From Antedon mediterranea (taxonomy: Eukaryota; Animalia; Echinodermata), in assembly GCF_964355755.1 (NCBI RefSeq), contig NC_092671.1:36032304-36096303 (forward strand): a stretch of DNA of 64,000 bases, given 5' to 3'. Below are positions 28,438 through 53,770 of this stretch, one piece after another. Position numbers and translations under genes: made by a program. Position 1 is the stretch's first letter, and every line of letters starts with the position of its first letter. A model generated the notes under the pieces. The model searched no databases. It saw only the letters and a list, made by a program, of their open reading frames with translations, and had not been told where the DNA came from.

Positions 28438-31400
28438 ATGAAGTCGGAGTTCTCAATCCTGCTGGTGCTAACAGCGCTGTCTATTTATATTGCATCAGGT
28501 AATATTCTTATTAATACTAATTATATAAAATACCGTACTACCGCAATAATAATAATAGGTCTATGCAGCAATGTATGACGCTTCAGGCCTCATCATTTAT
28601 TTTTGTTCAAACTTAATAACTTTATGGGACGAAAGTTGTTGAAAATTTATTTACAATTTTAGGTAATCCAGTTTGTGAAGTTTGTAACTGTAAAAATCCT
28701 GATCTTAGTGCAGAAGTAGTAGATGGCTGTCAGCTGTGTGTTTGCCTAATAGTCCCTCCGTCTAATCCAATACCAGATAAGGGTAAGTTTAGTTTTATAT
28801 TTATAGGCCTATAATTAAAAGAGAATTTAGTTTTTATTGCATAGTTAAAGATGTATTGTCCCCCAAAACATGAAAAAGGATTAATTAAATCAGACTTTGA
28901 ATAGGTTATTTTGTAGTTTTAATAAAGTTAATAACTTCCGTAGAAGAAAAAAATGTTTTCACTTATAACCATGAGAAAATAAATGGTTAGATTCTACCAA
29001 AAATCCATTGGCTGACAGCCAATTTAACTATTTTTGGCTTTACAGTTTTTGCAGGTAAATACGCATTGTTTCGATCTAATTTTGGTAAAATTGGATAACT
29101 ATTATGTGACCTTAAAACAGCATATACAAAAAATAATAATGTCAATAATTATTTTTTCAGGGGGACAATACATCTTTAATGTTTCCCATTCTTCTACTGA
29201 TAATGTTTTTGTCTTAAAAAATAGTGACATACTGTATAGTAACATTAATATTAACTGCTTAATATAATATTTGTGTACAAATTTTAAATAGTTATTAAAT
29301 AGTTATACTCACACTCCTTTTGGCTTTAAATTATACTTTCCTAACCGGACTTGACACACGAGAGGTGTGGTGGTTGGGTCGTTTTGAACGTGTTGAAACC
29401 ATATCAACAGTACTGTATAATATAACTCCAAAGTTTAAATAACTATCAGTAATAAGTTTTTTGTTTTTTTTAAAGGGTAATTTTGAATAATAATAGTCGG
29501 CCACCTGACCACCAATCCCCACGCCCAGCAAAGCAAACCCCGTTACTAGGCGATTAATCAGACACATTATTCATCAGAATGCTTTTCCCACAGACTGTCC
29601 TCTGCACTGTTCGTTTGGTTGTTTGGAAACCGGTTCTGATAGTAAAGGATGCCCTGTATGTGACTGTTTTCCATCTCAGCCTAAACCACCTACTTGTGAG
29701 TTCATTTTATTGTAGTTTATTGAAAAATTAAAAGTAGTAGTATTACTGTACAACTCATGTTCATTATGTTTCATTAAAAAATATCGACTACAACGACATA
29801 CAGACAAACTGACTCAAAATTGGTCAAGTAACAGATTTAATGACAGAATACAATTTTCAATTCAATTCAAATTCTTTATTGCAACAAAGTAAACATTGTT
29901 GAATTTACAATATTAAAATAGCAATTAATAAATAATTAAAATTACAAGTTCACATTACAACATATACAAATATAATGATAAAATGTTAAAATTAATTTAT
30001 TTTATTTTAATAATAATTTTCAAAAAAAATTATAAAACAAGCGCTGTGAATCATGTATTTCTTAGTCTGCCCTCTTGTCTGTCCGTTCGACTGTGTGAAG
30101 GACCTACTTAGGTCTATATTTATAATTACTATGACCTAAGTTAATGCTTTTAATTGAATTCTGGTGGGATCCAGGTGGAAGTTTTAAAATGATAATTCAA
30201 TTCAATTCAATTCAAAGCAAAATTTATTTACTCCTTTCACATTACAAAACTGAATGAACTCAATGAACAATATATATTTTTAAAAATTAGAAAGAAGAAG
30301 ATACAAACCCAGAAAGATGAAAAACACATCGTGTGGAGGGCGTACCTATCACTGACAGACAATTAAAAAAATAATAATAATAAATAAATAAATAAATAAA
30401 AAATTGACCGAAGAATAGTTAATATTTGGAAATAAGGTGACTTTTAAGTTTAGATAATTGTTATCCTTTAGTTTGTAAACCATGTGAATGTGAAACAATC
30501 GATTTACCAGCTGGTATCGGTGGATGTCCAATATGTGACTGTTCTCCATCTCTGCCTAAACCTCCTACTAGTGAGTTATTCTTATTTGTATTGCAGTTTC
30601 TTGAAAATGAAAAGTAGTACCTGTAGTAGTGTTAACGTACAATTCATGTTTATTGTGTTTCATTTAATATCGACTACAAAGAAATACAGACAAAAGATTG
30701 ATCAAGTAACAATTTTAATGACAGACTTTTACAATTTTCTTAGTCTGCTCTCCGTTTTGTCCGTTTGGCTGTGTGGAGACTGGATTAGATGCCCTAAGTT
30801 GCCCAATTTGTGATTGCTCTTCTCAGGATCCGGAACCTCCCACAGGTAAGTCAAATCTATCTTTCTATTTATTCTTCTTCTTTTTAATTTTACTGAAAAC
30901 CATTTTTACAAAATTAAAGGTCCACGATGAAATATGTGTTCTTAATCCTGGTTCATAATAATTTTTCTTATTAATAATAATTATATCAAAATACTACCCC
31001 AATATCAATAGGTGACGTCTATTCAGACATGTATAAATTTGTTTGCACTTCAGGCCCCAGCATTTTATTTTTTTTCAAACTTAATCACTTTTTGGAGGAA
31101 ATCTTGCTAATTAAGGTGTTTAAGAGGAAACATGAGTACGACGAGATAGTTAGTATGTAAACCTTTATGAGGATTAGAACATTTTGATTGTTATGCTTTA
31201 GACTGTAAACCATGCGAATGTAAAGAAATCGAGATACCAGGTATCGTTGGATGTCCACTGTGTATCTGCGACGACCCCGAGCCGCCACCAAGTAAGCTAA
31301 CATCATTTTGTTAATGTTGTAAATTGACATGAATAAAAATATCTGGCATTGTATAGTGAGATTGATTTTGTTGTAGGTCTGACCATCAATGTACAGTCAA

Positions 31401-34400
31401 CAACAAGGCGAAATGAACTCTGAACCCAACATACTTAAAAACTAAATCAACTCAAAAGTTAACGTTATATCATCATTTTATTTACATTTATTTTGGAAAA
31501 TCCAGTTTGTGAAGATTGTAACTGTAAAAATCCTGACCCTGATGCAGAAGTAGTAGATGGCTGTCAGCTGTGTGTTTGCCTAATAATCCCTCCGCCTAAT
31601 CCAATACCAGATACGGGTAAGCTTAGTTTTATATTCATAACTATGATATAAATTTAGTTTTTCATAAACAATACAAGTTCCTTGTTTTATTCTTTTTTAA
31701 CTTTCGTGATCCATGTTGATTTGTTCTTTTTACTTTGCAGAGCCCCTTCGGGGAGTCTTAGCAAATCCATATGCCAATGTAGTCTTTGTTTTTTTAATTG
31801 TACTCGAGTTTTTTTTCTGTGTTAGGCTTTAATGAAAGTGACAATGTCAACGTTGGTAGACAATGTATTTTATATGAGGCAAAGATGCTCCAGATGAAAT
31901 AGTATTTTAAGATTAGAGCGCGTCATTGTACTCACTTTTATTTAAATGCAATGTATACGAAATGGGTGTTATTATATGTGTTTACATAAAATGTCTTTCG
32001 TTAAAACTGCCTCAATATAAATTTATTAACAAAACATGTCATTTATTCTAAAGTTATGTTTATTTCGACAATTTTTTTTTTTTTTTTTTTTTTTTCTGTA
32101 AGCTTCCATTAGAGCGGTTTACTACATAAAGTTTGTAGGCAAAGCTTCCATTAGAGCGGTTTACTACATAAAGTTTGTAGGCAAAGCTTCCATTAGAGCG
32201 GTTTACTACATAAAGTTTGTAGGCAAAGCTTCCATTAGAGCGGTTTACTACATAAAGTTTGTAGGCAAAGCTTCCATTAGAGCGGTTTACTACATAAAGT
32301 TTGTAGGCAAAGCTTCCATTAGAGCGGTTTACTACATAAAGTTTGTAGGCAAAGCTTCCATTAGAGCGGTTTACTACATAAAGTTTGTAGGCAAAGCTTC
32401 CATTAGAGCGGTTTACTACATAAAGTTTGTAGGCAAAGCTTCCATTAGAGCGGTTTACTACATAAAGTTTGTAGGCAAAGCTTCCATTAGAGCGGTTTAC
32501 TACATAAAGTTTGTAGGCAAAGCTTCCATTAGAGCGGTTTACTACATAAAGTTTGTAGGCAAATTTATTATTATGTTAAGTTATTGTATCGTGATTATGT
32601 AACATTAATACTTTTTCTGCTCATAATTGTGTACAGAGTTAAAATGAAGTAGAAATATTATTTGATAAGACTAATGTTTGTCCTTCACAAATAGTTATAC
32701 TAGAAAAATAAATATTTGGTACTCATTGTATTCGGCCTTAAATGGCACTCCTAACTTTCTAACCGATTTTACACATGAGAGGTGTGTGTGGTGGTTGGGT
32801 CGTTTTGTACGTTGTTGAAGCAAATACCAAAACAAACATCAACTACTGTATATAACTGAAAACGTCCACAATGTACACTTTTATATTAAGTTATCGAATT
32901 GGTCGCATGACCACCAATATCCACGCACACGCCCAGCAAAGCAAGCCCTGTTTTACTAGACGTACTGGAAAGACCAATACAACGATCATCAGACACATTA
33001 TTCATTACAATGGGTTTTTTTCACAGACTGCATACTGACTTGTCCGCTTGGTTGTATAAAAACCGGTTCTGATAGTAAAGGATGCCCAGTATGTAACTGT
33101 CTTTCATCTCAGCCCAAACCACCTACTTGTGAGTTCGTTTTATTGTAGTTTATTGAAAAATTAAAAAGTAGTAGTATTACTGTACAATTCATGTTTATTG
33201 TGTTTTATTAAAAAATATTATATAATCGACTACAACAAGAAAACATTTTAATCACAGAATTTTACACTTTATTTTTATTTTATTTTATTTTTATTTTTAT
33301 TTTATTTTATTTAACACTTTTCTTAGTCTGCTCTCCTGTGTGTCGGTTTGGCTGTGTGGAGACTGGATTAGATGCGTTAGGATGTCCAATTTGTGATTGC
33401 TCACCTGATGATCCGAAACCTCCTACTGGTAAGTGAAGTCTATTTCATTCTTCTTCTTGTTCATTTTACTAAAAACCATTTTTTTACAAAATTATCAAAC
33501 TTCAAAGGTCCATGATGAAGTCTGTGTCCTTAATCCTGATTCATATTATCAGGTAATATTTGTATTAATAATTATTATATCAAATACTACCCCAATAATA
33601 ATTAGTCTATGCAGAAATGTATTTATGACGCTTCAAGCCCCATCAGTACTTCATAATTTTTTGGGGGAAAACACAATTTAATCCGCCGTGATACGTGTAA
33701 AAATTATTATCATTACGGTGTTTAAGAAGAAACTTGAGTACCACGGGATGGGTATGTAAATCTAACTTTTATGATGATTAGAACATTTTGATGAACTGGT
33801 TTTTTTATATTGACAATAAAAATATCTGGCATGTTTTATAGTGATTTTGTTGTGATTTTCAGTACAGTAAACAACAAGGCGTAATAAACTCTGAACCCAT
33901 CATACAAACTAAATCAACTCAAACGTTATACCATCATATTTTATTGACATTTTTTGGAAAATCTAGTTTGTGAATTTTGTAACTGTAAAAATCCTGATCC
34001 TGATGCAGAAGTAGTAGATGGCTGTCAACTGTGTGTTTGCCTAATAGTCCCTCCTAAACCAGTACCAGATAAAGGTAAGAATTCTTTTATGATTAAAATA
34101 AATATATTTTTCATGAACAATAATACATTTTACAGAATGTAGAGTTCCTTTTTGATATGAATTTGTTGAAAAGAAATGATATATTATTTGCTGTGTTATC
34201 ATCAGTTACGCCTCTCGTTTTTCTACATAACCCTTTTTACTGTTTCTACTGCTATTTTCTTTTGTTATGAGCAGCAGCAGGATGGTTTTGTGTTGTGTGT
34301 ATATAATTTTCAATTTCTTTTATTTTTATTTCGCCCACTAAATCGTGTACAAAGTTTAAATGAAGTAAAATATTAATTATTAAGACTATTGCCCGTCCTT

Positions 34401-37400
34401 CATAAACTAATAATATTTTTTTTTGATAAATAAATATACTAAATATTTTACACTCCTTGTATTTGGCCTTATAAGCACTCTGATCCTAACTTTCCTAGCC
34501 GGATTTAAAGCCGGTAGTTGGTCGTTTTGAACGTTGATGAAGCAAACTGTAACAACACTACTATATATAACTCCAAAGTTTAAATAACTATCAAAGTATT
34601 TTTTAAAGGGTAATTTTCACCCGACCACCGGTCAACTGACCACCAATCCCCACGCCCAGCAAAGCAAACACTAGGCGTACTGGACAGACCAATAAAACGA
34701 ATAATCAGACACATTACTCATCAGAATGTTGTTTCCTCAGACTGCCCTCTGCATTGTCCGTTTGGTTGTTTAGAAACCGGTTCTGATAGTAAAGGATGCC
34801 CAGTATGTGACTGTTTTCCATCTCAGCCCAAACCACCTACTTGTGAGTTATTTTCATTGCAGTTTTGTGAAAAACAAAAGTAGTAATAGTATTACTGTAC
34901 AAGTCATTATGTTTCATAAAAAAATATCGACTACAACGATATACAGACAAACGATTGATCAAGATTGGCTTTTACAATTTTTTAGTCTGCTCTCCGATAT
35001 GTCCGTTTGGCTGTGTGGAGACTGGCTTAGATGCGCTAAGATGTCCAATTTGTGATTGCTCTTCTCAGGATCCGGAACCTCCCACAGGTAAGTCAAATCT
35101 ATCTTTCTATTTCTTCTTCTTCTTTTTAATTTTACTGAAAACCATTTTTACTAAATTAATGGTCCACGATGAAGTCTGTGTCCTTAATCCTGATTCATAA
35201 AAAAACATCAGGTAATAATTATTCTTATATAATATTAATTATATCAAGAAGAGCGTGTAACATAATATGCCCCGATGGTACCTCGTATGATACCTTAACA
35301 TCATCACTCTATCTGAACGCCGCGAGAAGTTTTCAAGAAAATTCTTTGATAAAATGAAAAAAAAAGATCATATATTACACACTCTCTTACCTAAACCTCC
35401 CACACACAACCATCAGCTCCGACGCGTTAGATCGTTCACCCTCCCCAAAGTCCGGACACAACGCACAAAAAACTTCATTACTTTCTACGGAGTTTTCAAT
35501 GATTGGTGAATGATCAGTAACTGAGTTATGATAAGCAAATTGTGAACCTCTATTGGTTTGTGTTACTGGATGTACTATGATGGCCATTGAAAGACTGGTT
35601 TGTGGACTATGATATATTTTAGTATTACTTGTTTGGACTGTGTTATACTATGAGTTTACATATTTACTATTATATTTATGTCAACTTCATCACTGCTTAC
35701 TTGATGCAATAAAGGAAATAAATAAATAAATAAAAATCAAAGTACTACCCCAATAACAATATTGACGTATATACAGAAATGTTGTAAAATCTTGTAAATA
35801 CGGTGTTTAGGAGGAAACTTGAGTACGACGAGATTGTTATGTAATATTTTATGAGGATGAAAACATTTTGATTGTTATCATTTAGATTGTAAGCCATGTG
35901 GCTGTAAAACAATAGATATACCAGGTATCGGTGGATGTCCACTGTGCATCTGCGACGACCCTGAGCCTCCACCAAGTAAGCTACATCATTTTGTTAATTG
36001 AATGCAGATATCTGGCACCGTATAGGGAGATTGTTTTTTTGTTGTAGGCCTAATCATCAATATACAGTCAACAACAAGGCGTAATGAACTCTGAACCCAT
36101 ACACCTAGAAACTAAATCAACTCAAACATTAACGTTATAACGTTTATTTACAATTTTAGATAATCCACCAGTTTGTGAAGTTTGTAACTGTAAAAATCCT
36201 GATCTTAGTGCAGAGGTAGTAGATGGCTGTCAGCTGTGTGTTTGTCTAATAGTCCCTCCGTCTAATCCAATACCAGATAAGGGTAAGCTTAGTTTTATAT
36301 GTATGTGACTAAAATATAAATCTAGTTTTTCATGAACAATAACATATTTTACAGAATGTAGAGTTTTTGTTTGCTGTGTTATCATCAGTTACGCCTCTCG
36401 TCTTTCTACGTAATCCTTTTTTACTTTGTTATGAGCAGCAGCATGATGGTTTTGTGTTGTGTGTATATAATCTTCAATTTCTTTTTTTTTCATTTCGACA
36501 ATTAAATCGTGTACAAAGTTTAAATGAAGTAAAATATTAATTAATAAAGACTATTGTCCGTCCTTCATATACTAATATAATATAATAAAAATAAATATAC
36601 TAAATATTTTACACTCCTTGAATTTGGCCTTAAGCACTCCTTAAACTTTTCTAACCGGATTTGACGCATGAAGCAAACACCATGTTACTCCTCTCTATTG
36701 AGAGTGAGGTGTGGTAGTTGGTAGTTTGATAATTATTAGTATAACTATCTTCCATAAGGCAAACTGTTATTAACAAGTTATCAAATCGGCAATCTGACCA
36801 CCAATCCCCATGCCCAGCAAAGCAAACCCTGTTACTAGGCGTACTGGAAAGACCAATAAAACGATCAGACACATTATCTGTTTTTTCCACAGACTGCCCT
36901 CTGCACTGTCCGTTTGGTTGTTTAAAAAGCGGTTCTGATAGTAAAGGATGCCCCGTATGTGACTGTTTTCCATCTCAGCCTAAACCACCTACTAGTGAGT
37001 TATTCTTATTTTTATTGCAGTTCTTGAAAAAGAAAAGTAGTATAGTAGTATTACTGTACAATTCATGTTAATAATATATATAATAATAACAGGATTTTTA
37101 TAGCGCACATACCACCACTCAAGAGTGCTCAAGGCGCATTTAAAAAATAAAAAACAAATCATACAAATTCCTGACAAATGTTTATTATGTTTCATTAAAA
37201 GATATGCCAAACGTACAGGGAATGGCTTAGCAATTGACATTAAAGATATAGTTGTATAGCTACCCAAGAGAGACACGTACGACGAAAAAAAAACGTATTC
37301 AAATTATTAATTATCAATATTATTACATTATTGACGATAATTAACCAATAATTAACCGATAAACTGCCTGTGGAAACGGCAGTTTAAGAACCTCAACTAA

Positions 37401-39986
37401 ATCTGCTTCTTCCTTTATTCACGCTCCAAAAGAAAATATAAAATGAAATACAGTACATGCTGCGATTTGCTTTGGAATGTTCCATTCATGTAAAGGACCT
37501 AGTTATGCTTGGTTCACACTTGGACGCAACGCACGGACGTAAGCGAAACGCAAGTAAATCCTGTTTTGCTGTCGACGTTATTCGACTCTATCGTCGTTGA
37601 TTGTTAACAGTTCAACGACGATCGTCTGAAAACGATTAATTTGAAATGATAACGATAGAGAGTACCTTTTTCTGTAAATCGTTAACTTTTCAGTGTTGAA
37701 AATCGCCGATTATTGTTAACGATAGCATCGAATAACGCCGACAGGAAAACAGGCTTTAGTGAATGTTCGAATTATCCATCGCTTGTGATTTGCCAAATCA
37801 CAAGCTTTGCGTTGCGTCTTTAGTGGGAACCAAGCATTAGGCCTATATTTTCTAATTATATTAGCGATGAAGTTGATGCTTTGAATTTAATTCTACATTA
37901 TTTTTAAAAAAATGATATTCAATTGTTATCCTTTTAGATTGCAAACCATGCGGATGTAAAACAATCAATATAGGTATCGGATGTCCACTGTGTCTCTGCA
38001 TCCCTAAGCCGCCACCAAGTAAGCTAACACCGTTTTGTTAATTTTAGTTGTCAAATTTATATGTTGCATAGTAGTAATACATATTGTAAGTAATACATAT
38101 TGTCCAAAGCGTCTAAAAATAAAGATGGGAGAAAACAGACTTTGAATTCCAAACTATAGTCTAATGTGTATTGAAAATATTCTTTTTTCCAAACCAATAA
38201 TTAGTAAAAACTAACCTTGACAGTTTCGCTGTCCTGATCGGACAGCTTCTTCAGAAATAATGACGATCTATCATCAAACAGACTGACCTCTAGAGGGCCT
38301 ATTCTGCTTAATGACAGGGTCATACACGTGACTGAGTTGGTGGGTGCCCTCGTCTCTGTTGATGATTTGGTTTCCTCGTCTGCGGATCCAGATGGCTTCT
38401 CTGATGCGTCGGTTGTTTGTATCTGATTCCCTGTCGATGATTTTCAATATACTTATACCTACCTACAAACCAGATGAACATTTTCAATATAGTCTAATGT
38501 ATTAACAAACATCATATCGTGTAAACTTACTTATTCAATTTAATTTAATTTAGGCCTAATTTAATTTATTTCCACAATATTATAACATGGATAATAAATA
38601 CAATGTAATACAAGTAATCATGTGAAGGGAGAGTCATAAGTCAGAAAGACTTTAAGTTTGACCCACCCCAAGATAACATTAAATACAAAAAAGAAAAAAA
38701 AATACATAAACTAATAATAAATAAAAGAAAACAAAGCTACAATTTCTATTCTTTTCTATTATGAAATATATATTTAACGTTTATCATATCTTGAAAGTAA
38801 AGCTTGGTTCCCACTAGAACGTAACGCAAGGACGTCAACGCAACGCAAACGTTTTAACCAATGACAAGCGAAGTTATAGACAGTTAGCAATAATCACAAG
38901 CGAATAAGCCATTGCTTGTGATTGGTCAATTCACTTGCGTTGCGTTACGTCCTTGCGTTGCGTCGCTAGTGGGAACCACGCTTTAATAGTTCTTGTATAC
39001 TAACTTAAATTGCGAAGTTGTAGATGCAGTTTTAATATCTACATGGATTGAAATACAAACATACATAATATGCAAAGCAAGTAATAGGCCTATACTTGGC
39101 AAAAGCAATGGAGAAAAACAAACATTTAGAATTTTTATATAAGTCTTTCTTACTTATTAATAGAATGTGATTTGTTCTGTCCAATTGGATGTAAAAAAAT
39201 TGGTGTATCTCGAGATGGATGCGCAAGATGTGATTGTAGTTTATCTCTCCCTGAACTTCCACCACCAAGAAGTAGGTTTCTTAGATTTTACAAAGTATTT
39301 TCTTTCTTATCTGTATATAATTGTAATAATAATATATAATAATATAATTGCATGAATATATACGTGTGCGACGTTTCGACTTGTTTCCAATGAGTCTTCA
39401 TCTGGCAATGACAAGATGTTAGTGTTGATATAAAGAGAATCTCACTCTTGATAAATTCAAAGCATATTGATCGAAACGTCGAGAAACTTTTCAGAACTAA
39501 TATACGGGGTGTACCGCAAACTTTATATCACATTAAGATTTCGCCATGCAAACCTTCAAACAATATATAGATGTTGGTGTTACCAACCGTACATAATTCA
39601 ATATCTAACGAAATTTTGATTATCTATTTCTATATAACAGTTTTTTTGTCTTATGTAGGTCCGATCCACTTTTATTTCCTCATCAGTAAAAATGTTACAA
39701 TTACATTGCACTTGATATTAACAGTTTTTATCAATAAAGATAAAGGATGAAAAATATAAATTATTTGTTTAACTTTGATGATAAATGTATCATTTTATTA
39801 AGCCTATAATAATTTATAAAAATACGATTTTTTTTTATAGTAGCATGTCCTAAATGCTTTTGTCTACCAGACGGTCCTCCTTTCAATGATGAGAATGGGT
39901 GTATTATTTGTAGCGCCTGCCCTGGACCTCAACTACCACCACCACCGCCACCACCATCACAAAGAAAAAAGAGAGAACTGAATTAG
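28438..39986 (+). CDS. Gene A: secreted cysteine/proline-rich modular protein, 17 six-Cys modules (antistasin-related), ~616 aa if all exons are used
   Basis: Signal exon 28438-28498 (MKSEFSILLVLTALSIYIAS). Phase-1 exons: 28663-28782, 29594-29695, 30472-30570, 30744-30845, 31202-31291, 31506-31616, 33027-33128, 33327-33428, 33967-34074, 34741-34842, 34986-35087, 35886-35975, 36160-36282, 36893-36994, 37938-38018, 39164-39271. Terminal exon 39841-39986 (...PPPPPPPSQRKKRELN*). All are AG/GT-bounded, stop-free and in frame. Confidence 0.8.
28849..29175. mobile_element. Kolobok-like MITE in gene A intron 2
   Basis: TTAA-AGATGTATTGTCCCCC ... GGGGGACAATACATCT-TTAA. Confidence 0.8.
32101..32562. 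repeat. Perfect 42-bp tandem repeat x11
   Basis: (AGCTTCCATTAGAGCGGTTTACTACATAAAGTTTGTAGGCAA)x11 with identical units and no spacers, preceded by a poly-T run. Confidence 0.97.
35248..35735 (+). mobile_element. 5'-truncated non-LTR retrotransposon 3' fragment
   Basis: Degenerate ORF2 C-terminus (RACNIICP..SYD..LSERRE..PKVRTQR), AATAAA plus (TAAA)n tail, ATCAA duplicated at both ends. Absent from the paralogous intron copies at ~30985 and ~33580. Confidence 0.7.
37507..37836. mobile_element. Harbinger-like MITE with a second inverted-repeat element nested inside (~37556-37758); relatives at 38800-38985 and 40309-40521
   Basis: TIR GCTTGGTTC(A/C)CACT ... AGTGGGAACCAAGC; inner CCTGTTTTGCTGTCG ... 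CGACAGGAAAACAGG. Confidence 0.75.
38215..38445 (-). mobile_element. Penelope-like retroelement 3' fragment
   Basis: Minus strand reads KIIDRESDTNNRRIREAIWIRRRGNQIINRDEGTHQLSHVYD (GIY-YIG C-terminal E-A-I-x-I...NRDEG motif), followed by a hammerhead motif. Confidence 0.8.
38216..38258 (-). ncRNA. Penelope-associated hammerhead ribozyme
   Basis: CTGAAGA-A-GCTGTCC(GATCA)GGACAGC-GAAAC-TGTC: intact core boxes and a perfect 7-bp stem II. Confidence 0.7.
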
Positions 39987-41020
39987 ACGAAGAGGATTTC
40001 ATAACATTCACTCACAGATCACTGAATATCGGCTACAGTAACAAATTAGGGTGTTTTTTGTATGCACAAATAAATATCTTTTGTTTTACTTCAGCTCGCT
40101 GGATACCACCGCACTGAATAGTTTAACATTCCTATGAATCGTAATATTATAAGAAATTGTTCTTTTATTTTCATTCTTTATATTTAAAAACTTTCTTTAT
40201 CATAATAACATTTTCAACATATTAAAATTGTGGGTTGCTGGGGTATATCTTAGTATACACGGGAGTTTAGGCGTTAAAAGTTCACGTAGTGAGTTACCGT
40301 TAGCGTTTAAGCGTGGTTCCCACTAGAACAACGCAACGCAGCGACGTATTGACGCAAAGTGATGTATTTCGTAATCACATGTGGAAACCGACGACGCAAC
40401 AGTGATGCAAAACTCGCAGGTTTGATTTCACGCAGACGGAGGCAAACGCAATTATTAAAAGGGCATTTTCTTACGTAGCGTAGGTTGTGTTAGGTTGCGT
40501 CGGTAGTGGGAACCAAGCTTTAGGAGGCCTCAGTGTACGCTAACATTAGGCGTTAAATGTTGAAGTACTGCGTTTACCGTTTAGGAGGTATTTGTGTACG
40601 CAGAAGCTCAGGTAGATATTGATATTGTTTATGCTCCATTGTAATAAACATGATTAGCTAATGTATTTTTTTTAGTACTTACACACCGTAATAAATAAAA
40701 GAATTAGATATAAAAGATATAAAACATTTTTTTTTTTTCAAACTTTACGGTCATCCGGGTTATCAAGGTATATCCAGAAACACAGGCACAGAACATTAAT
40801 TATAAACTGTTCGATGACATTTAATTAAATAATTTAAAGCGATAAAGATGAGGGAATCTGTGAGAATGAGAGGAAAAAAAACTCGTCCAAACCGAGATTC
40901 GCACCTGGAACTTTCTGCTTGATATGCAAATGTTCTAAAAACTACACCACTTGGGCTTCATGGTATTGTTCAAATTCGATTGGATATCGACTCTTTAACA
41001 CACTCGGCGTAAAAATTACT

Positions 41021-41160
41021 CAATCCCTCCCAAGATCACTGATTAGGATTACGTAAAAAGGCGTATGTATCCGGAGCAGCACGCCTCAAATTGGAATTAA
41101 CTAGGATTTACAGATTAGAAAACTAAAGCCTATATAAAATCATTTTACAAAATAATAATG
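41021..41160 (+). promoter_or_regulatory. Conserved proximal promoter of gene B (paralogous blocks 49000-49130, 51740-51885; diverged 28330-28420)
   Basis: TTACGTAA (41049), CGCCTCAAATTGGAATTAACTAGGATTTACAGATTAG, and TATATAAAA (41131) about 50 bp upstream of the ATG; same order in paralogs B, C and D. Confidence 0.7.
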
Positions 41161-41180: not shown

Positions 41181-44100
41181 ATGATGAAGTCGGTGGTCTT
41201 TGCTCTCCTGCTCACAGCGATCTGTGTTCATGCTTTTCCCGGTAAGTTTCTTTTTTTTTTATAATGGAGGAATTGGAATGTGAACTTTACTAACATTTTA
41301 AACTGATGTACATTATTTAAATTCATATCTTGTGTTAGAAAATTATGTTAATTTTTAGGCCTAGTAGTTGAAGTGGATATTTTGCCAGTCTGTAGGCCTA
41401 ATGATAAGAAAATGCAATACTCAAATTCCATTATAAATAAAGTTAATTTTAAGAATAAAGATAAAGGTCTATATGGAGTATATTTTACGTTTGTAGTAAA
41501 TTATATATTGTTTGTTTTTTATAATTTGTTAGTTAGTTTCACAATAAATAAGATATGCCAACACTTTCATCTATTAACATACCCTCCTGTTGTTTCAGGT
41601 CCGGGCATAATTTTGTTCTAATAATAATTATTAATGTATAGGCTGCCCTCCGATCTGCCCGTTTGGTTGTTCAAACATTGGTCTTGATTCTTTCGGATGT
41701 CCAATATGTGAGTGTTTTCCTCAACAACCTGGACCACCACCTGGACCACCACCACCTGGACCACCACCACCTGGACCACCACCACCTGGACCACCACCAC
41801 CTGGACCACCACCACCTGGACCACCACCACCTGGACCACCCGGTGGTAAGTTACTCATAATTATTAATGTCTATCTTTTTAGCTGTTTTCACACATTATA
41901 CTAATTTGAAAAAAAATAGGCCTTACAGTACTATAGTTAAGATAAAGAAAATTAGTAATCAAAATAATTCAACAACAAGGATGAAGTAGGCCTAACACTC
42001 CTTGCAGTTGGCCTTAACGGCCGATCCCGAAGTCTTTCCTAGCCGGATTTGTCAGGATGATAATATGGGCGATGGCCAGTCGTCTTCCAGCCCGTTTCCG
42101 ATTGTGTTCCATATTTTTAAAGTTTGAATTTGAATAACGACACAACAACACAACATGAAAATTACAAGTAGCCTTACTCCTTAGGTCCATCATTATCATT
42201 CACTAGAGGGTGAGCTCGCTTCGCTCGCTTCCCCCCTAGACAATGGTTCTCGGAATGATAATGACTCGGGTAAAAAGGTTTTAGAAGGACGTTCTTCTTG
42301 TACGTTTTTTGTCGGTTACCATTATTGAAAATGCTTGATATTCGTAAAACTAAACCTACTCTGTTTCACAGTGTCTTAGATAACTAAGAACATTTTAAAG
42401 TATAGTGTTTATTGTTTGGTAGGGCCCTTATAGGGGAGGGGAGGAGGAGTTCGTTTGATGAAGGCGCTTATTCGAGAGATATGTTTAATTTGTTAGTTTT
42501 AATAATATGGTAGCATTTATAATCAAATGAAATCTTCTAATAGATATGAAAAGTGGTAAAAAAGAATCACAATAACTTGGTAAATTGTAGATAACAGTGC
42601 GATGAATTCTACTACAAATAGTATAATTGTGTTATTATAAATAATACAATACTGTGTGTATTATAAATGTGGATGAGTTAGATAGTTGGGTTGGGAGGAG
42701 GGGGGGGGGGGATTATTAATCAAAGTGATGATTTATTGAAGAGGCCTTTATTCAAATAAATAACATCCTAATAATTAATACATTATTTCATTTAAACATC
42801 TTTTGAAACTAACTTTCGCGACGGAGTGGGCCGTTTCGGCCCAAGAAAGAAGACATTTTAGACGGCTTGCAACATGGGCAGACATCCCGGTCCAAAAGGG
42901 ACACAGAACAGATAGCCTAAAGTTATTCCTGTCAGCTTACTCAATAAAACTCGGCTATCGGGATTCCACTCGATTTTAAACAAAATATCTTATCATCAAA
43001 TCTCCCAATGTAATTTCATAATAATATTGCCCACAATATATTCCGATGCTTCATGGCGTAGGCCTATATCTAATTGCATCTTTATTAATTTGCATTATAA
43101 TTTTTATTTTTTAACTACTGTACCTTCACACACGCGCTGTCCGTTCCTAAAATAACAAAAAACTAAAATGGCTATAGCCACTAAGGGCCAACTTAGTTGA
43201 AACCAGGTTGTTGCAATGTGATCTCATCTTGAACCCGGAAATTACTTTGACCGCGTAGAATTAAAATTGAGTTGAAAATCTACCGTTGAAATCATACATT
43301 TTGTTTAAAGAGCAGTACATCTGAGATAGATCAGGTAGGTATTCAAGGCAGAGATTTTTACCGAAGTGTTTCCATTGTGCTCGCCTATGTCAGAATTAAC
43401 CATAATTTATATATAGATGAAACTAATGAGTCTGGGCATATTACCCGTACTAGTACAATAATAATTATATCCTGAACACTAAAGTAGATCACAAAAATCT
43501 AATAAAGGGCATTGTTTCCCAAAGTTTGCACGGCTGTTGCGTTTCGTCTTTGCGGAGGTTATGTTATTAAAAGGGAATCACACATTTTCCGGGCAATGAT
43601 GATGAACTTAGTTTTGGGCGCAATTGATTAACAAATATTCAACGGAACGATTTCACATTTCTAGTCTGTCCTCCTCCAGACTGTCCACCTGATTGTTTTT
43701 ATAGTGGTTTTGATGGTAATGGATGTCTCAATTGCGAGTGTCCCCTTCCTCATCCTGAACCCCCACCACCTGGCGATGGTACGTTTTTTTTAAAAGGAAA
43801 TATGATAATATTTGAATAAATTAGATGTCAATTATTGGAAAATAACAAATTCTGGACGTGTATACCTATAGCTTTCAGTCGAGAGGTTGACTTAAATCTG
43901 TTCAGGGTGAATTTGATTGAATAAATAGTTTGTTTGATTGATTGATGGATGCTTGAGGGAAAAAAAGTCTAAATAATTATATTCATTATTTTCGAGTAAC
44001 TAGGCCTATAAGTTGTTATAAATATGCACTATATGGTTATGGCTAATTACCACGTTGGGATTAAGAAAAGATAGTGTTTCCTTTTGAATTACTCTATTCT

Positions 44101-45154
44101 ATATCTTTTATTTAAAAAATGTTCGTATGCCTAGGTTAATACTTTGAATTGACTTGCATTTATATTCTTTAGGCTGTGGAGCTTGCTCCTTCTCGTGTAC
44201 ATCAATCACTACACCAGATGGGATATGTCAATGCCTCTGCTACGAACCTCCAAGTAAGCAAACACCGTTCTCAGCTTCTTGTCTGATTTCCTTTAAAATG
44301 TAACACGTTCAGGGAGCCTTGATTCGTTCAGGTGTCCGACGAAAACTCACATACATAATACATTTTGTACAGAATTCGGAATTATTAAACACTGCACCCA
44401 TTTCCCATGGTGTTGTTATCCGGTCTAATGGATCGGAATCCATAATGTAATAATAATAATAATTGGACTGGAAGATTATTCATCAGCATTTGTTTACATA
44501 GAATGAAGTCTGTTCTGCCCGTTCGATCGTCCGTTCGCTCGTCCGTTCGCTTTGCTTACCTCACTTACTTGCTTGCTTACACATTGTGTTATTATGGCAT
44601 ATTTTACAGGATGTCCGCTATGCCCATGTCTAACCGACGGCCCTCCACAGTACTCTGAAGATGGATGTCTTATTTGCAACTGTCTTGAGATCTTTCGAAA
44701 GAAGAGAGCACTCAAAGCTCGTTGGCCTCGTAGACGTAAGATGATTTCAGATACATTTACATATTATAGTTTATTATTATTAGTTTCAAATGAAAGCATA
44801 ATCGGTTTATATTCGATTGTAATTGAAGTGAAATAAAATATGTAATAAGTAACAAATGGTTGGGTAAAAAGATGCATGAGAAAATATTTAAATCACTGGA
44901 ATGATAAATGTATTGGAATTAATAATTGATTTATAGTCTGTGAAGAATAAGAAACAACTCAACCGAGATTCGAACCCGGAATCTTCTTCTTGATACAGTA
45001 CAGTAACAGGCCATTGGAGCATTTATGGATCGACTCTTGTCGTGGCATGTTACACGTTAAAACCAGACAATCATGAAATGTGTGGTAAAGATGTGTGGTT
45101 ATGATCTGTTTTTTTCTTTATATTTTAGCCCTGGCTGGAAAAAAGGCGCACTGA
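41181..45154 (+). CDS. Gene B: secreted 4-module Cys/Pro-rich protein with (GPPPP)6 tract and C-terminal processed peptide, ~203 aa
   Basis: Exons 41181-41241 (MMKSVVFALLLTAICVHAFP), 41642-41845 (GCPPICPFGCSNIGLDSFGCPICEC...GPPPP repeats), 43665-43778, 44173-44253, 44610-44735 (...CNCLEIFRKKRALKARWPRR), 45129-45154 (PLAGKKAH*). All introns are phase 1. Confidence 0.85.
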
Positions 45155-46250
45155 ATTAAGATGCGAACCATCAACTTTGGAATTCGGTGATCAATGATGC
45201 GTCACATTCATGAAAATACTTTTCTTCAAGTTGTTTATATCATTTAATTATCTCTTTTTTTTCTTCATCATCATTATACCAGTTTCTAAAATATAGGGAT
45301 GTTATTTAAGTTCAGGTTATGTCTTAGTACGGGTCTTTTTGTGGTATGTGGTCTTATAATACTTTCACATGTTTCTTTATGATCACCACATAAACTGGCA
45401 ATTAATCTCAATAACGACAATAAGCACTGTATATTTTCGGCACAACTTGAATAAAAAATGAAATTGTAATAAAAAATTAAGAAAACTTACAAAACAATAT
45501 CGTTTCTTTATTTGTATTACAACATATTAATTAATTATTATCATTATTAATATTACATCAATTATTATTATTAATATTACATCAATTACTATTGTTATTA
45601 ATATTACATCAATTATTATTGTTATTATTATTACATCAATTGTTATTGTTATCAATATTACATCAATTATTATTGTTATCAATATTACATCAATTATTAT
45701 TGTTATTAATATTACATTTCGGCACAACTTGAATAAAAAATGAAATTGTAATAAAAAATTAAGAAAACTTACAAAACAATATCGTTTCTTTATTTGTATT
45801 ACAACATATTAATTAATTATTATCATTATTAATATTACATCAATTATTATTATTAATATTACATCAATTACTATTGTTATTAATATTACATCAATTATTA
45901 TTGTTATTATTATTACATCAATTGTTATTGTTATCAATATTACATCAATTATTATTGTTATCAATATTACATCAATTATTATTGTTATTAATATTACATC
46001 AATTATTATTGTTATCAATATTACATCAATTATTATTGTTATTATTATTACATCAATTATTATTGTTATCAATATTACATCAATTATTATTGTTATCAAT
46101 ATTACATCAATTATTATTGTTATTAATATTACATCAATTATCATTGTTATTATTATTACATCAATTATTATTGTTATCAATATTACATCAATTATTATTA
46201 TCAATATTTTCTCAATATTCAATTTATCAATATTTTTCTGGTTTTCTTAT

Positions 46251-47478: not shown

Positions 47479-49148
47479 ATATTACATTTTAATAAAAAAA
47501 AAAAATAAAAAAAAAAACAAAAAAAAAACCATCAATTATTATTGTTATTAATATTACATCAATTATCATTGTTATTATTATTACATAAATTATTATTGTT
47601 ATTATTATTACATCAATTATTATTTTTATTAATATTACATTTCGGCACAACTTGAATAAAAAATGAAATTGTAATAAAAAATTAAGAAAACTTACAAAAC
47701 AATATCGTTTCTTTATTTGTATTACAACATATTAATTAATTATTATCATTATTAATATTACATCAATTATTATTATTAATATTACATCAATTACTATTGT
47801 TATTAATATTACATCAATTATTATTGTTATTATTATTACATCAATTGTTATTGTTATCAATATTACATCAATTATTATTGTTATCAATATTACATCAATT
47901 ATTATTGTTATTAATATTACATCAATTATTATTGTTATCAATATTACATCAATTATCATTGTTATTATTATTACATCAATTATTATTGTTATCAATATTA
48001 CATCAATTATTATTGTTATCAATATTACATCAATTATTATTGTTATTAATATTACATCAATTATCATTGTTATTATTATTACATCAATTATTATTGATAT
48101 CAATATTACATCAATTATTATTGTTATCAATATTACATCAATTATTATTGTTATTAATATTACCTCAATTATCATTGTTATTATTATTACATAAATTATT
48201 ATTGTTATTAATATTACATCAATTATTATTGTTATTAATATTACATCAATTATTGTTGTTATTATTATTACATCAATTATTATTGTTATCAATATTACAT
48301 CAATTATTATTGTTATCAATATTACATCAATTGTTATTGTTATCAATATTACATCAATTATTATTGTTATCACTATTACATCAATTATTATTGTTATTAA
48401 TATTACATCAATTATTATTGTTATTATTAGTGTTATTATTATTACATCAATTATTATTGTTATTAATATTACATCAATTATTATTGTTATTATTATTACA
48501 TCAATTATTATTTTTATCAATATTACATCAATTATTATTGTTATCAATATTACATCAATTATTATTGTATTAAAATTACATCAATTATCATTGTTATTAA
48601 TATTACATCAATTATTATTGTTATTACTATTATTTACATATTTAACATATATCAGCTTTAAATATCTTACGAATAATTACCCCATTGCAACAATTTTAAG
48701 CAAAAATAAAATAACATCATCCTCTAGACTGATCATAAAGAAGGAAGTCCTAAATACTAAAGTGCACCAATTTCTGTAGACTTCTTGAACTAAGTGTCTA
48801 TAACTTGTCTTTTGTATGTTGTTGTATGTGGTTCAGATCAAAATGATATTTCAAAAAGAAAATATAAATGAAATATATTTAACAAGCTCCTTTCATGTAT
48901 TGAACCAAGCTACCTATGTTTTACCCCATAATCAAAATTAACGATCATCCCTGTATCGAGGTATATCCATATAAAGGAAATATTAAAATTGCTTTTAATC
49001 CCTTTAAGATCCTGATTAGGATTATGTAAAACGACGTATATATCCGGAGCAGCACGCCATTTGGAAGTAACTTGGATTTACAGATTAGAAAACTAAAGCC
49101 TATATAAAATCATCTTACAACATAATAATGATAACACTTCAAAGGTCC

Positions 49149-50483
49149 ATGATGAAGTCGGTGGTCTTTGCTCTCCTCTTGCTTACAGCACTCTGTGTTC
49201 ATGCTAGAATACCCTACGGTAAGTTTTTTTCTTTGTTATCATGAAGAAATTGGAAACGTGTATTAGTATTACATTTAAATTGATGTACATGTTTAAATCC
49301 ATATTTATTGTTAGAAAATTATAGGCCTAGTAGTTAAAGTGGATATTTTTACAATATGTAATTATAAGAAATTACAATCCTCAAATTCTATTATAAAATT
49401 ATTTTGAAAAATAAAGTTATATAAAGAGTATATTTCAGTTTAGGAGTAAAATTATATATCGTCTTTTATAGCTTCGTATACGTACAAAAGAAGGTCAGAT
49501 ATGCCTACAAAAAGTTTTCATTTGTCATCATACCTTCTTGTACTGTGTAGAACCTCGTTTGAGATAGTCGCACATTATGTTTCAGCTCTGGCATAATTTT
49601 GTTCTAACAATATTAATGTATAGGCTGTTCTCAGGTTTGTCCACTTGGCTGTGCAAACCGTGGTCTTGGTCCTGACCTATGTCCAAGATGTGAGTGTTAT
49701 CTTTATCCTAAAGAACTCCCTCCACCTCGACCACCACCACCTGGACCACCCGGTGGTAAGTTACTCTATATCTATATACAGTTCTTTTTTTTTCAGGGAA
49801 ATAACTTTTTTTTAATCTAATCTTTGGATATTATGTGACATTATGTGCATTCTAAACAAAAAAATTATTTGTTCAGAGAGAGAAAACACAATTTCAAAGT
49901 AAACGAATCTATCATTAGTTTTTAACTGTTTTCACACATAATTTTAAATTAAGGACTATAAATTGATCTATCTGTCTTTCAAAATAATTCGACAACAAGA
50001 GCTTTAGACGGTCGCTCCCGAAGTCTTTCCTAGCCGAATTTTGCCAGGATGCAGGATGGTATACACGGCGATGGTGTGTCGCCTCTTCATTTACTCCATA
50101 AACTAAATAGGTGATCACGTGCTACATTCATCGGAATTTCAATATCAATTTATAGGTTGTTCTCCTATTTGTCCGAGTGGTTGTTTAAACATTGGTATTC
50201 GTAACGGATGTGCAAAATGTCTGTGTTCTCGTCGTGATGTGGATCGTGGAACACGTGAGAGGATTTCAAATACATTCTCATAGCAATGACTATTAGTTTC
50301 AGTAACTGCCAAAGTGTTATCAGTTTATATCTGATTGTTATCATGGCAGAAAATATGTAATTATAACAAACAGTTCAAAAAGGGTACATAAATGACAATC
50401 TTATCAGCCAGAGAAATGTGCTGGAGTTATTAATTAATCTACAACTGTGAAGATGTTTTCTTTATATTTTAGGTCTGGGATAA
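49149..50483 (+). CDS. Gene C: secreted 2-module Cys/Pro-rich protein ending RR-DVDRGTRL-G*, ~103 aa
   Basis: Exons 49149-49218 (MMKSVVFALLLLTALCVHARIPY), 49624-49755 (GCSQVCPLGCANRGLGPDLCPRCEC...PPPPGPPG), 50156-50254 (GCSPICPSGCLNIGIRNGCAKCLCSRRDVDRGT), 50473-50483 (RLG*). The 3'UTR is homologous to gene B's. Confidence 0.85.
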
Positions 50484-51450: not shown

Positions 51451-51901
51451 TAAACAGCGAACTCAAACGCTCTCGATGGGACGTCTTAAATAAGCTATTA
51501 TAGGTGGACATTTGGAATTAGAAAAGGTACACACATCGTCTTTAGGCTATTCTGATGACAATGCCGTGTGGGGACGCAATTTAGTTTATTTTAAATTTTG
51601 TTTTAGCTTATAAAAGATGTATTCTCCCCCAAAACATGAACAATTAGGATTAATAAAATCAGACTTTAAATAAGCCATTGTGCACTTCTGTAGAAAAAAA
51701 AAATGTGATGATGGTCCATTGAAAAATATTGGCATTGTTTAATCCCTCCCAAGATCTCTTAATAAAGATTATGTAAAAACGTATGTAATTGGAGAACGCC
51801 TCAAATTAAAATTAACTCGGATTTACAGATTAGCAAACTAAAGCCTATACGCCTATATAAAATCATCTTACAAAATAATAATGATAACACTTCAAAGGTC
51901 C

Positions 51902-53770
51902 ATGATGAAGTCGGTGGTCTTTGCTCTCCTACTCACAGCGCTCTGTGTTCATGCTATGCCCCATTTTTTTTTTTTTTTATCATGGAGGAATTGGAAACTT
52001 GTATTAGTATTACATTAAATTGATGTACATATTTAAATCCATATCTATTGTTAGAAAATGTTAGGCCTAGTAGTTCAAGTGGATATTTCGCCAATCTGTA
52101 GGCATAATGATAAGAAATCGCAGTACTCAAATTCCATTATAAAGGTATTTGAAAAATAAAGCTATAAGAGTATATTTTAGTTTTAAATGGAGTAAAATTA
52201 TAAATAAAGTTTAGATCAATGATCAAGACTATAAATTGATCTATCCGTCTTTCAACAATAATATTCGACAGACACTTTCATTTGGCCTTAAACGGTCGTT
52301 CCCGAAATCTTTCCTAGCCGGATTTTGTCAGGATGCCTGGCTGACGATGGTAAGTTTTTTTTTTTTAAGGAAATAGATAATAAATATGTTTAAATAAATT
52401 ACGAAGCAACCATGGAGATAAAAAATAATTTGTTTACCTCCATAAATCAACACTTTCATTTAAATTTAAATTCTAAATAACTAATTATTATTTAAAGGGA
52501 ATCAAACGCTGTCAGGGAAATGATAAGGAACTTAGTTTTGGGTACAATGTGCAAAACAAAGATTAACGGAACGATTTCACATTAATTTCTAGGCTGTCCT
52601 CCTGTCTGTCCACCTGGTTGTTCTATAAGTGGTTCTGATGATAAAGGATGTCCAACATGCGATTGTCCTGACGATGGTAAGTTTTGTTTATGATATTATT
52701 ATTTGAATAAATTACGAAAGCTACGCTATTATTTAGATGTCAATGATTGGAAATAACTAATTCTGGACGTGTAGGCCTATAACATTCAGTCGAGAGGTTG
52801 TATTATTTGTTCAGGAGTGTGAATTTTTTTTTTGATTGATTGATGGAAGCGTTCGATGGTGTAATACGTACGCTAACACACACAACTAAAAAATTGGCGC
52901 GAGGATAAAGTCTAAATAATTATATAAATATTAATGCCAACACTTTTGTACAGTAAGATAGTAAATAATACTGTGAGTTGAATTAAACTAACTAACGATG
53001 GACGCTACTTATTAACCTTATTCGGAATTTCTTCGATGAAGAATCTTTTCTAAGGGCACCTTTTCTCCCTTCTCCCCATGATCACGTGAGAGATTCATAT
53101 GAATTTTATTATTAATTTATAGGTTGTTCTCAATTATTATGTTCGGTCGATTGTATATTGGTTGATAATACTCACGGATGTGCAACGTGTGTATGTCCTC
53201 CTGAAATACGTAAGTGAAACTCATATTGAATTTTCCTGAAAATATGTTGTAAATTGTACTAAGAAAAATCAAAGCAAGTTTCATAGGCCTACAGTCATTT
53301 TAATGAATCATTTAACATGATGAACCGATACAAAATCAAGTTACAAATTGTTAATTTTCTTTTTATCCAGGTGATGATCTTGAAAATATTACATAGAAAA
53401 TATGACTCAATTTCTATCTTTAATTTCATACTTTAAATTCGCATAGACCTAAAGTAACTAAAGTAAAGTAACTTTGAATTGACTTGCATTTATTATTCTT
53501 TAGAAGCTCGGTGTACTGAGTGTTACCCATGTAGTGGATTTCGCGGTCATAGTGGGAGATGTAGATGTTTCTGCGATGTTCGAGACTTACGTAAGCAAAT
53601 ACTTTTTTGAACTAATAAAGTATGGAACGCAAAAAGTGCAAACAAAGTGAATTGATTAAATAATGATATTAATAATAAAATCTGTTTTCACATATCATCT
53701 GCATATCTTACAGTTTGTGGACAATGCATCGTCTTACCGGATGTAGCATGAACATTTCTATTCACTGGGG
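51902..53770 (+). pseudogene. Gene D: fourth paralog, probably pseudogenising
   Basis: Signal exon from 51902 lacks the GTAAG donor (replaced by CATTTTT...). The GPPPP exon is deleted. Intact module exons remain at 52593-52676 (GCPPVCPPGCSISGSDDKGCPTCDC), 53123-53209 and 53504-53590; a decayed exon at ~53714 has an early TGA. Confidence 0.65.

What the first reader, a model, noticed from the sequence alone, without database searches (positions are those of the whole stretch)
28438..53770. Hidden four-gene cluster of secreted 'beads-on-a-polyproline-string' 6-Cys module proteins
Seen: four tandem plus-strand paralogs (ATGs at 28438, 41181, 49149, 51902) with homologous promoter blocks, homologous signal-peptide exons, and 26 small internal or terminal exons. 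Each of these exons encodes exactly one 6-Cys module, nearly always followed by a Pro-rich linker. Module number is 17, 4, 2 and 3. Cys positions are fixed within a module class while intervening residues vary, and exons have been gained, lost and recombined. The ORF track shows only fragments. Established: signal peptide + small disulfide modules + basic cleavage site + tandem birth-and-death is the architecture of protease-inhibitor, toxin, defence and structural-secretion families. Inference: a lineage-specific secreted effector family that I cannot assign to a named family.
Basis: partly seen in the sequence, partly recalled or inferred. Interest (0 to 1): 0.88.

Follow-up and report, generated by a model that had tools for sequence, protein, structure and literature searches.

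The report
Feather star antistasin-like bead-chain genes
A feather star carries three neighbouring genes, plus a decayed fourth gene start, in which each small exon encodes one six-cysteine module, over half of them resembling the leech protein antistasin and most followed by a proline-rich spacer; the predicted secreted chains likely act as structural or surface-protective material rather than as protease inhibitors.

Summary
Real, and spliced in part. All 26 six-Cys module exons are there, with phase-1 splice sites. The models of genes 2 and 3 match RefSeq 'uncharacterized' proteins of the crinoid Antedon mediterranea letter for letter. Gene 1 (17 modules, 616 aa, open frame) was not found in the protein searches; a likely RNA run shows 4 of the 11 predicted introns tested. 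Two corrections. (1) 'Gene 4' lacks its signal-exon donor and first module exon, and RefSeq splices its exons onto gene 2: three genes plus an alternative 3' cassette. (2) The family can be placed: 14 modules are a short-loop antistasin-like domain (10 of 14 hit PF02822, all below cut-off; a profile search finds antistasin-repeat proteins, including a centipede protein with the same layout). Eleven of these 14 have Pro at the P1-equivalent position, and the 10 class-2 modules lack the C-x3-C loop, so canonical inhibition is unlikely. Gene 1 grew by internal duplication of a block including exon 1; three decayed exon-1 copies remain. Class 2 found no relative outside this locus. Function is inferred, untested. 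New variant of a known kind.

The parts
28329..28382 (+). gene 1 upstream (promoter) block; the TATA-like motif of the other three copies is altered here
   Evidence: family D19
28438..28498 (+). gene 1 exon 1, predicted signal peptide, phase-1 donor
   Evidence: junction not seen in RNA
28663..28782 (+). gene 1 module 1, class 2 type A (Cys spacing 2,1,12,2,1) + Pro linker
29594..29695 (+). gene 1 module 2, class 1 type C (3,3,9,2,1)
30066..30100 (+). truncated relic of a class 1 (type D) exon, three Cys, no donor
   Evidence: profile positions 1-11, E 0.0013; family D8
30472..30570 (+). gene 1 module 3, recombinant exon: type B head, type C tail (2,1,11,2,1)
30744..30845 (+). gene 1 module 4, class 1 type D
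30918..30965 (+). decayed copy of exon 1 (ATG 30927), no donor, no promoter block
31202..31291 (+). gene 1 module 5, class 2 type B (2,1,10,2,1)
31506..31616 (+). gene 1 module 6, class 2 type A
33027..33128 (+). gene 1 module 7, class 1 type C
33327..33428 (+). gene 1 module 8, class 1 type D; the only class 1 module with Arg after the second Cys
   Evidence: donor seen in RNA joint
33481..33560 (+). decayed copy of exon 1, skipped in RNA
33967..34074 (+). gene 1 module 9, class 2 type A
   Evidence: both joints
34741..34842 (+). gene 1 module 10, class 1 type C (AlphaFold model: beta-hairpin)
34986..35087 (+). gene 1 module 11, class 1 type D
   Evidence: both joints
35161..35215 (+). decayed copy of exon 1, skipped in RNA
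35886..35975 (+). gene 1 module 12, class 2 type B
   Evidence: acceptor seen in RNA joint
36160..36282 (+). gene 1 module 13, class 2 type A
36893..36994 (+). gene 1 module 14, class 1 type C
   Evidence: fits the 595-nt contig
37938..38018 (+). gene 1 module 15, class 2 type B (2,1,8,2,1)
   Evidence: contig length arithmetic
39164..39271 (+). gene 1 module 16, class 1
   Evidence: contig length arithmetic
39841..39988 (+). gene 1 terminal exon: module 17 (class 2 type F, 2,1,12,2,2), polyproline, RKKR, stop
   Evidence: contig piece starts at 39841
41071..41145 (+). gene 2 upstream block with TATA-like motif
41181..41241 (+). gene 2 exon 1, predicted signal peptide
   Evidence: RefSeq XP_071941554-6; contig piece ends at 41240
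41642..41845 (+). gene 2 module 1, class 1, followed by (GPPPP)n repeat
43665..43778 (+). gene 2 module 2, class 1 (4,3,9,2,1); likely cassette exon, skipped in RefSeq isoform X3
   Evidence: a contig covers it from its acceptor
44173..44253 (+). gene 2 module 3, type K (2,3,9,1,1)
44610..44735 (+). gene 2 module 4, class 2 type F, then RKKR and basic tail
45129..45154 (+). gene 2 last coding exon with stop
49041..49110 (+). gene 3 upstream block with TATA-like motif
49149..49218 (+). gene 3 exon 1, predicted signal peptide
   Evidence: XP_071941553
49624..49755 (+). gene 3 module 1, class 1, Pro-rich tail; last 27 nt identical to exon 41642-41845
50156..50254 (+). gene 3 module 2, class 1 (3,3,8,2,1)
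50473..50483 (+). gene 3 last coding exon with stop
51786..51975 (+). 'gene 4' upstream block and signal-peptide exon (ATG 51902) without the homologous donor
52593..52676 (+). alternative 3' cassette module 1, class 1
   Evidence: XP_071941554/5
53123..53209 (+). alternative 3' cassette module 2, class 1 (4,3,8,2,1)
53504..53590 (+). alternative 3' cassette module 3, type K (2,2,9,1,1); tandem acceptors 53504/53507 give RefSeq isoforms X1/X2
53714..53751 (+). alternative 3' cassette last coding exon, two Cys, stop

Best explanation
This is a tandem cluster of three Antedon mediterranea genes, plus an alternative 3' exon cassette left by a decayed fourth copy, built from phase 1-1 exons that each encode one six-cysteine module; the proteins are predicted to be secreted, 14 of the 26 modules are a short-loop antistasin-like domain, and the chains likely serve as non-inhibitory structural or surface-protective material (mucus, adhesive or matrix). 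Shown: exon anatomy, open frames, identity with RefSeq proteins, four RNA joints, sub-threshold antistasin hits. Inferred: each module closes three disulfides around a beta-hairpin; Pro-rich linkers hold modules apart as extended spacers; a furin-type protease trims the basic tail at RKKR in genes 1 and 2; repeated modules give multivalent binding or cross-linking. Module number changes freely because every module exon is phase 1-1 and a multiple of 3 long: gene 1 grew by unequal duplication of a block [exon 1, B, A, C, D] without the promoter, and the internal exon-1 copies, having no acceptor, are skipped and decay.
For: Phase-1 sites 26 of 26 acceptors, 25 of 26 donors; all internal exon lengths divisible by 3, gene 1 open for 616 aa. 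Models equal RefSeq proteins. Run X1 (RNA by guess): GT..AG joints 33428>33967, 34074>34741, 34842>34986, 35087>35886, two of which skip an exon-1 relic; a 595-nt contig fits modules 14-17 by length (26+102+81+108=317 nt before 39841). PF02822 hit by 10 of 14 class 1 exons, 0 of 12 others. Class 1 profile against 1.84 billion representatives: 9 hits, 2 from this locus, 7 secreted-type repeat proteins, 4 of the 7 above the Pfam antistasin cut-off and one named antistasin-like by UniRef. Antistasin spacing 4,3,10,2,1 with Arg after the second Cys (PDB 1skz); P1 follows that Cys in hirustasin (PMC3014083, passages); here that residue is Pro in 11, Ser in 2, Arg in 1 of 14. AlphaFold: hairpin only, pLDDT 83. 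Gene 1 repeats under purifying selection, pooled dN/dS 0.42. Antistasin domains occur in sea star footprint and mussel byssus proteins (PMC9382459, PMC6508894, passages).
Against: No tissue, localisation or protein data. No exon reaches the Pfam cut-off (best 19.9 of 21.2 bits) and the four full RefSeq proteins hit no Pfam family. Paralogous modules of genes 2, 3 and the cassette diverge fast (dN/dS about 1.0-1.9) while signal peptides are conserved (0.07; Fisher p 0.004 on small, partly dependent counts; dN>dS itself not significant, p 0.61): the pattern of defence peptides rather than of structural proteins. Gene 3 is short and basic (84 aa mature, pI 8.8). Seven of 11 gene 1 introns in the laid stretch were not seen, among them all six upstream of module 8; signal peptides rest on hydropathy only.
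Confidence: 0.5

Rival explanations
1. Multi-headed protease inhibitors of the antistasin (MEROPS I15) kind, each module blocking a microbial, parasite or self protease.
For: Antistasin-like modules; one module has Arg at the P1-equivalent site (33329); fast divergence between paralogs; tandem heads on linkers is a common inhibitor layout (recalled).
Against: P1-equivalent is Pro in 11 of 14 on a Cys-for-Cys mapping; on the shifted mapping of the Pfam alignment the residue after the first Cys is Pro 6, Ser 6, Ile 1, Asp 1. The 10 class 2 modules have C-x2-C-x-C in place of the C-x3-C loop.
Confidence: 0.2
2. Surface defence peptides (antimicrobial, anti-parasite or deterrent), the short genes 2 and 3 and the cassette giving a varied repertoire, as in penaeidin- or MgCRP-I-like families.
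For: Conserved signal peptide with variable mature region, as described for MgCRP-I (PMC4558851, abstract); basic gene 3 and basic tail of gene 2; best fold match human beta-defensin 4, Z 2.3, rmsd 2.0, 28 aligned.
Against: That fold match is at noise level. Three of four mature products are acidic (pI 4.3-5.3). No cleavage sites between modules, so single peptides are not released. No helix in the model, so not CS-alpha-beta.
Confidence: 0.18
3. Metal-binding or metal-crosslinked secretion: CxxC and CxC motifs bind Zn, Cu or Cd instead of forming disulfides, above all in class 2 with its doubled C-x2-C-x-C.
For: Cys 102 of 616 residues, acidic; the same idea was proposed, untested, for a mussel byssus antistasin-like protein (PMC6508894, passages).
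Against: Signal peptides send the proteins to an oxidising compartment; each module has an even six Cys (established knowledge).
Confidence: 0.07
4. Gene 1 is a decaying or partly mis-assembled array and the 17-module protein is not made.
For: No protein for gene 1 in any search; altered TATA-like motif; 7 of 11 introns unseen.
Against: All 17 exons intact with phase-1 sites, dN/dS 0.42; repeat units differ by 7-30% at DNA level; DNA-type contigs cover parts without mismatch; four RNA joints.
Confidence: 0.05

Closest known systems
Antistasin family (Pfam PF02822; MEROPS I15: antistasin, hirustasin)
   Same: Six-Cys module ending in D-x-x-G-C-x2-C-x-C with a C-x3-C step before it; secreted; repeated.
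   Different: Spacing 3,3,9,2,1 against 4-5,3,10,2,1; no P-x-G-F/L loop after the third Cys; Pro instead of Arg at P1 in 11 of 14; below the Pfam cut-off; Pro-rich linkers; a second module class without the loop.
Strigamia maritima T1J7Y8, 'Antistasin-like domain-containing protein' (P0009)
   Same: Signal peptide, 5 modules (4 with spacing 3,3,8,2,1, Pro after the second Cys), linkers up to 38% Pro; pairwise BLASTP to gene 2 isoform E 2e-05.
   Different: Centipede; one module type; no C-x2-C-x-C class; orthology not shown, likely parallel build from the same domain.
Ornithodoros turicata XP_064473729 and Sycon ciliatum XP_065198619 repeat proteins
   Same: 19 and 14 modules of spacing 4,3,8-10,2,1, often Pro after the second Cys, alternating module types or Pro/Thr linkers.
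   Different: Uncharacterised; tick protein has short linkers and a His-rich tail; sponge protein adds spondin-N, WAP and a likely membrane anchor.
Lustrin A (abalone nacre) and cnidarian minicollagens
   Same: Works-like analogues: Cys-rich modules alternating with or flanked by Pro-rich stretches in secreted materials; domain number varies (PMC5850307, PMC6989532, passages).
   Different: Different Cys modules (recalled, not aligned here); no GS domain, no Gly-X-Y collagen run here; no such Pfam hit.
Sea star footprint proteins Sfp3/8/15 and Perna viridis byssal ALP
   Same: Antistasin domains in marine adhesive secretions.
   Different: Sfp8 has WAP and FAMeT domains; sequences not compared here.

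Membership tests
Antistasin-like domain (PF02822) | six Cys with C-x3-C ... G-C-x2-C-x-C order | tested here: met
   14 of 26 modules (class 1); reference spacing from 1skz
Antistasin-like domain (PF02822) | score at or above the Pfam gathering cut-off (21.2 bits) | tested here: not met
   best 19.9 bits; 10 of 26 exons hit, 0 of 26 pass; 0 of 4 full proteins hit
Antistasin-like domain (PF02822) | similarity beyond the Cys pattern | tested here: met
   profile from 23 modules of four Pfam-positive outside proteins: 14 of 14 class 1 modules reached by at most 3 of 200 Cys-fixed shuffles; partly circular, as those proteins were found with the class 1 profile; one search is independent
Antistasin-like domain (PF02822) | same test for class 2 and type K modules | tested here: inconclusive
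   3 of 10 class 2 modules at 0-3 of 200, 2 at 9 of 200, 5 at 24-71 of 200; both type K at 127 and 193 of 200; class 1 vs class 2 profiles 87.7% probability
Antistasin-like domain (PF02822) | antistasin fold and 1-4, 2-5, 3-6 disulfides | tested here: inconclusive
   model is a hairpin without helix; fold searches give no clear match; disulfides cannot be read from the output
Antistasin-type protease inhibitors (MEROPS I15) | protease-compatible P1 (Arg in antistasin and hirustasin) after the P2 Cys | tested here: not met
   Pro 11, Ser 2, Arg 1 of 14; definition
Antistasin-type protease inhibitors (MEROPS I15) | measured inhibition | not testable with these tools
   needs an assay
Pacifastin / VWC | Pfam model match | tested here: not met
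   0 of 26 exons and 0 of 4 proteins at E<=5
CS-alpha-beta defensins | helix carrying C-x3-C packed on a hairpin | tested here: not met
   no helix in the class 1 model; nasonin-1 sequence match E 0.49, not significant
Minicollagen / Lustrin | Gly-X-Y core or GS domain with their own Cys domains | tested here: not met
   absent from the models and RefSeq proteins; features

The most novel reading that the evidence does not exclude
A crinoid-specific secreted repertoire in which an antistasin-derived exon has given rise to a new disulfide module (doubled C-x2-C-x-C) with its own fold, and in which one promoter is spliced to alternative 3' module cassettes captured from a decayed neighbour, so that gene duplicates are caught turning into isoforms; the products would be a main protein of an uncharacterised crinoid secretion such as saccule content or feeding mucus.
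Probability: 0.15. Interest if true: 0.7.

Novelty: new variant of a known kind. Interest (0 to 1): 0.4.

Why it matters
It adds an unannotated 17-module gene and places three 'uncharacterized' crinoid products in the antistasin-like domain group, which here seems to have left protease inhibition. The locus keeps an unusually readable record of how modular secreted proteins grow: symmetric exons, a recombinant exon, skipped exon-1 relics, a cassette exon and a decayed gene whose exons are reused. It gives concrete candidates for crinoid secretions, whose proteins are little known (saccule function is still open: 10.1101/2024.08.14.607903, passages), and one small Cys module class with no relative found. 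It does not open a new kind of system.

Tried and rejected
No whole genome is held, so paralogs elsewhere could be sought only in protein collections. No listed sequencing run is on record as RNA; X1 is RNA by guess. Parts without contig cover (gene 1 exon 1, modules 1-7) prove nothing. ESM Atlas gave no usable hit for one exon or for P0001. PDB sequence searches with both class profiles: 4 and 4 rows at E<=10, none significant, no antistasin among them. Fold searches: no antistasin listed, best Z 2.3. The class 2 model is weak (pLDDT 61) and was not searched. Class 2 was searched only with the word-seeded tool (1 hit of 814 candidates, this locus), not against the full representative set, so its uniqueness is weakly tested. 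The cassette region of P0001 found only itself among 3 candidates. A metagenome scan with the class 1 alignment could not run. Earlier findings: nothing. Paper searches showed no paper on this locus in their listings; none of the 30 listed of 119 papers holds 'antistasin'; subscription journals are not covered. No complex prediction was sent. A global alignment to place the gene 4 deletion was uninformative; one search is used instead. Rejected: chance Cys clusters; allelic false duplication (units differ 7-30%); pacifastin, VWC, CS-alpha-beta, minicollagen membership.
Full report
Observation. A six-frame scan finds 26 six-Cys modules, all on the + strand between 28674 and 53574, and none on the - strand. 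The nearest upstream AG is in phase 1 for 26 of 26 and the first good donor is in phase 1 for 25 of 26; the exception is the terminal exon of gene 1. All internal exons are multiples of 3, and the 18-exon model of gene 1 is open for 616 aa with 102 Cys, 18.5% Pro, predicted mature pI 4.3 and RKKR at residue 610. Four copies of a 54-nt upstream block precede the four ATGs. This is far beyond chance.

Origin and annotation. A profile of the 14 class 1 exons hit 3 of 819 candidates, all RefSeq 'uncharacterized protein' of Antedon mediterranea. My gene 3 model lies letter for letter in XP_071941553; gene 2 without exon 43665 in XP_071941556 (isoform X3); gene 2 exons 1 and 2 plus the four 'gene 4' exons in XP_071941554 and 555. 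The window is therefore that species, and only gene 1 is missing from the collections searched.

Splicing. Five runs hold the DNA; none is on record as RNA. Contigs of run X1 give 5 joints in 29350-36750, of which 4 are GT..AG and coincide with predicted introns; 11 predicted introns lie in that stretch, so 7 were not seen. Near-identical exons and another individual may explain this, but it leaves modules 1-7 unproven. A 595-nt contig has a type C exon from position 27 and the terminal exon from position 318, which is exactly the length of modules 14, 15 and 16. For gene 2, one contig piece ends at the exon 1 donor with 122 nt left over, and variant positions place two other pieces at acceptors 43665 and 44610 (inferred from distances, not from listed joints).

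Gene number. The exon at 51902 runs into a T tract where genes 2 and 3 have their donor, reads into a stop after 38 codons, and offers no credible phase-1 donor. About 495 nt holding the first module exon of gene 3 have no counterpart there. Its signal sequence still shows almost no amino-acid change, so the loss is recent or polymorphic. RefSeq joins the downstream exons to gene 2 across gene 3. That join is uncertain, because the upstream exons of genes 2 and 3 share their last 27 nt. I read the locus as three genes and an alternative 3' cassette.

How gene 1 grew. Self-alignment shows a repeated block [exon 1, B, A, C, D] at 70-93% identity, with exons lost from some copies, one B-head/C-tail recombinant and one truncated relic. 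The three internal exon-1 copies lack the promoter block and two are skipped by RNA joints. Pooled dN/dS over types A-D is 0.42 (pairs not independent).

What the modules are. Class 1 (14 modules, spacing 3-4,3,8-9,2,1): 10 hit Pfam Antistasin, best E 0.0011, all under the cut-off; none of the other 12 exons does. The class 1 profile finds 9 proteins among 1.84 billion representatives: 2 from this locus, a tick and a sponge repeat protein, a centipede 'antistasin-like domain-containing protein' and four unnamed ones; those four pass the Pfam antistasin cut-off. The centipede protein has the same layout of signal peptide, modules with Pro after the second Cys, and Pro-rich linkers. Against a profile of outside modules all 14 beat Cys-fixed shuffles (at most 3 of 200), a partly circular test. 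AlphaFold gives a beta-hairpin at pLDDT 83; fold searches are uninformative at this size. Class 2 (10 modules, spacing 2,1,8-12,2,1-2) shares the G-C-x2-C-x-C half, aligns to class 1 at 87.7% probability, and its two terminal members keep a D-E-N-G-C or E-D-G-C motif and beat the shuffles; five members do not. It likely arose here from the same ancestor. Two type K modules are more divergent.

Function. In antistasin and hirustasin the scissile Arg follows the first Cys of the C-x3-C loop (PMC3014083, passages). Here that residue is Pro in 11 of 14, and class 2 lacks the loop, so canonical inhibition is unlikely except perhaps for module 8. There are no basic sites between modules; RKKR lies after the last module of genes 1 and 2. 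Antistasin domains occur in sea star footprint proteins and mussel byssus (PMC9382459, PMC6508894, passages), and Cys modules on Pro spacers are the design of Lustrin A and minicollagens (PMC5850307, PMC6989532, passages). I favour a structural or surface-protective secretion (0.5). Against it stands the conserved-signal, variable-module pattern between genes 2, 3 and the cassette, known from defence-like families such as MgCRP-I (PMC4558851, abstract). PMC3631404 (passages) notes strong conservation of the Gly before a Cys in leech antistasins, also nearly invariant here. No supplement was read.

Verdict. A real, expressed, lineage-restricted cluster; a new variant of antistasin-like repeat proteins, not a member of the inhibitor family by its defining P1 test and not a new kind of system. 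The unannotated 17-module gene, the unmatched class 2 module and the readable duplication record give moderate interest, 0.4.

Noticed in passing
window 46257-47399 (+): LINE-type reverse transcriptase fragment (Pfam RVT_1, E 1e-20) inserted in an AT-rich 27-nt satellite (about 45500-46200 and 47500-48620) between genes 2 and 3.
   Followed up: partly
window 52332-52349 (+): Possible 18-nt micro-exon with AG and GT in phase 1, coding one Cys; weaker copies near 42056 and 50048; not in the RefSeq isoforms.
   Followed up: no
window 4394-5029 (-): Lys/Glu-rich coding stretch whose end resembles the C-terminal part of SWI/SNF subunit SMARCC (recalled); no Pfam hit.
   Followed up: partly
window 57416-59620: ORF 57920-58540 (-) flanked by two Cys-rich stretches in opposite orientation (57416-57523 -, 59496-59579 +); looks like a DNA transposon remnant (recalled); no Pfam hit for the ORF.
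   Followed up: partly
window 32100-32563: Perfect 42-nt tandem repeat, about 11 copies, in a gene 1 intron.
   Followed up: no
window 53371-53400 (+): Strong acceptor followed by a short frame with a stop, between cassette modules 2 and 3; may be an alternative terminal exon.
   Followed up: no
P0005 (Ornithodoros turicata XP_064473729): Tick secreted-type protein named 'kielin/chordin-like' that is instead a 19-fold repeat of two alternating antistasin-like modules.
   Followed up: partly
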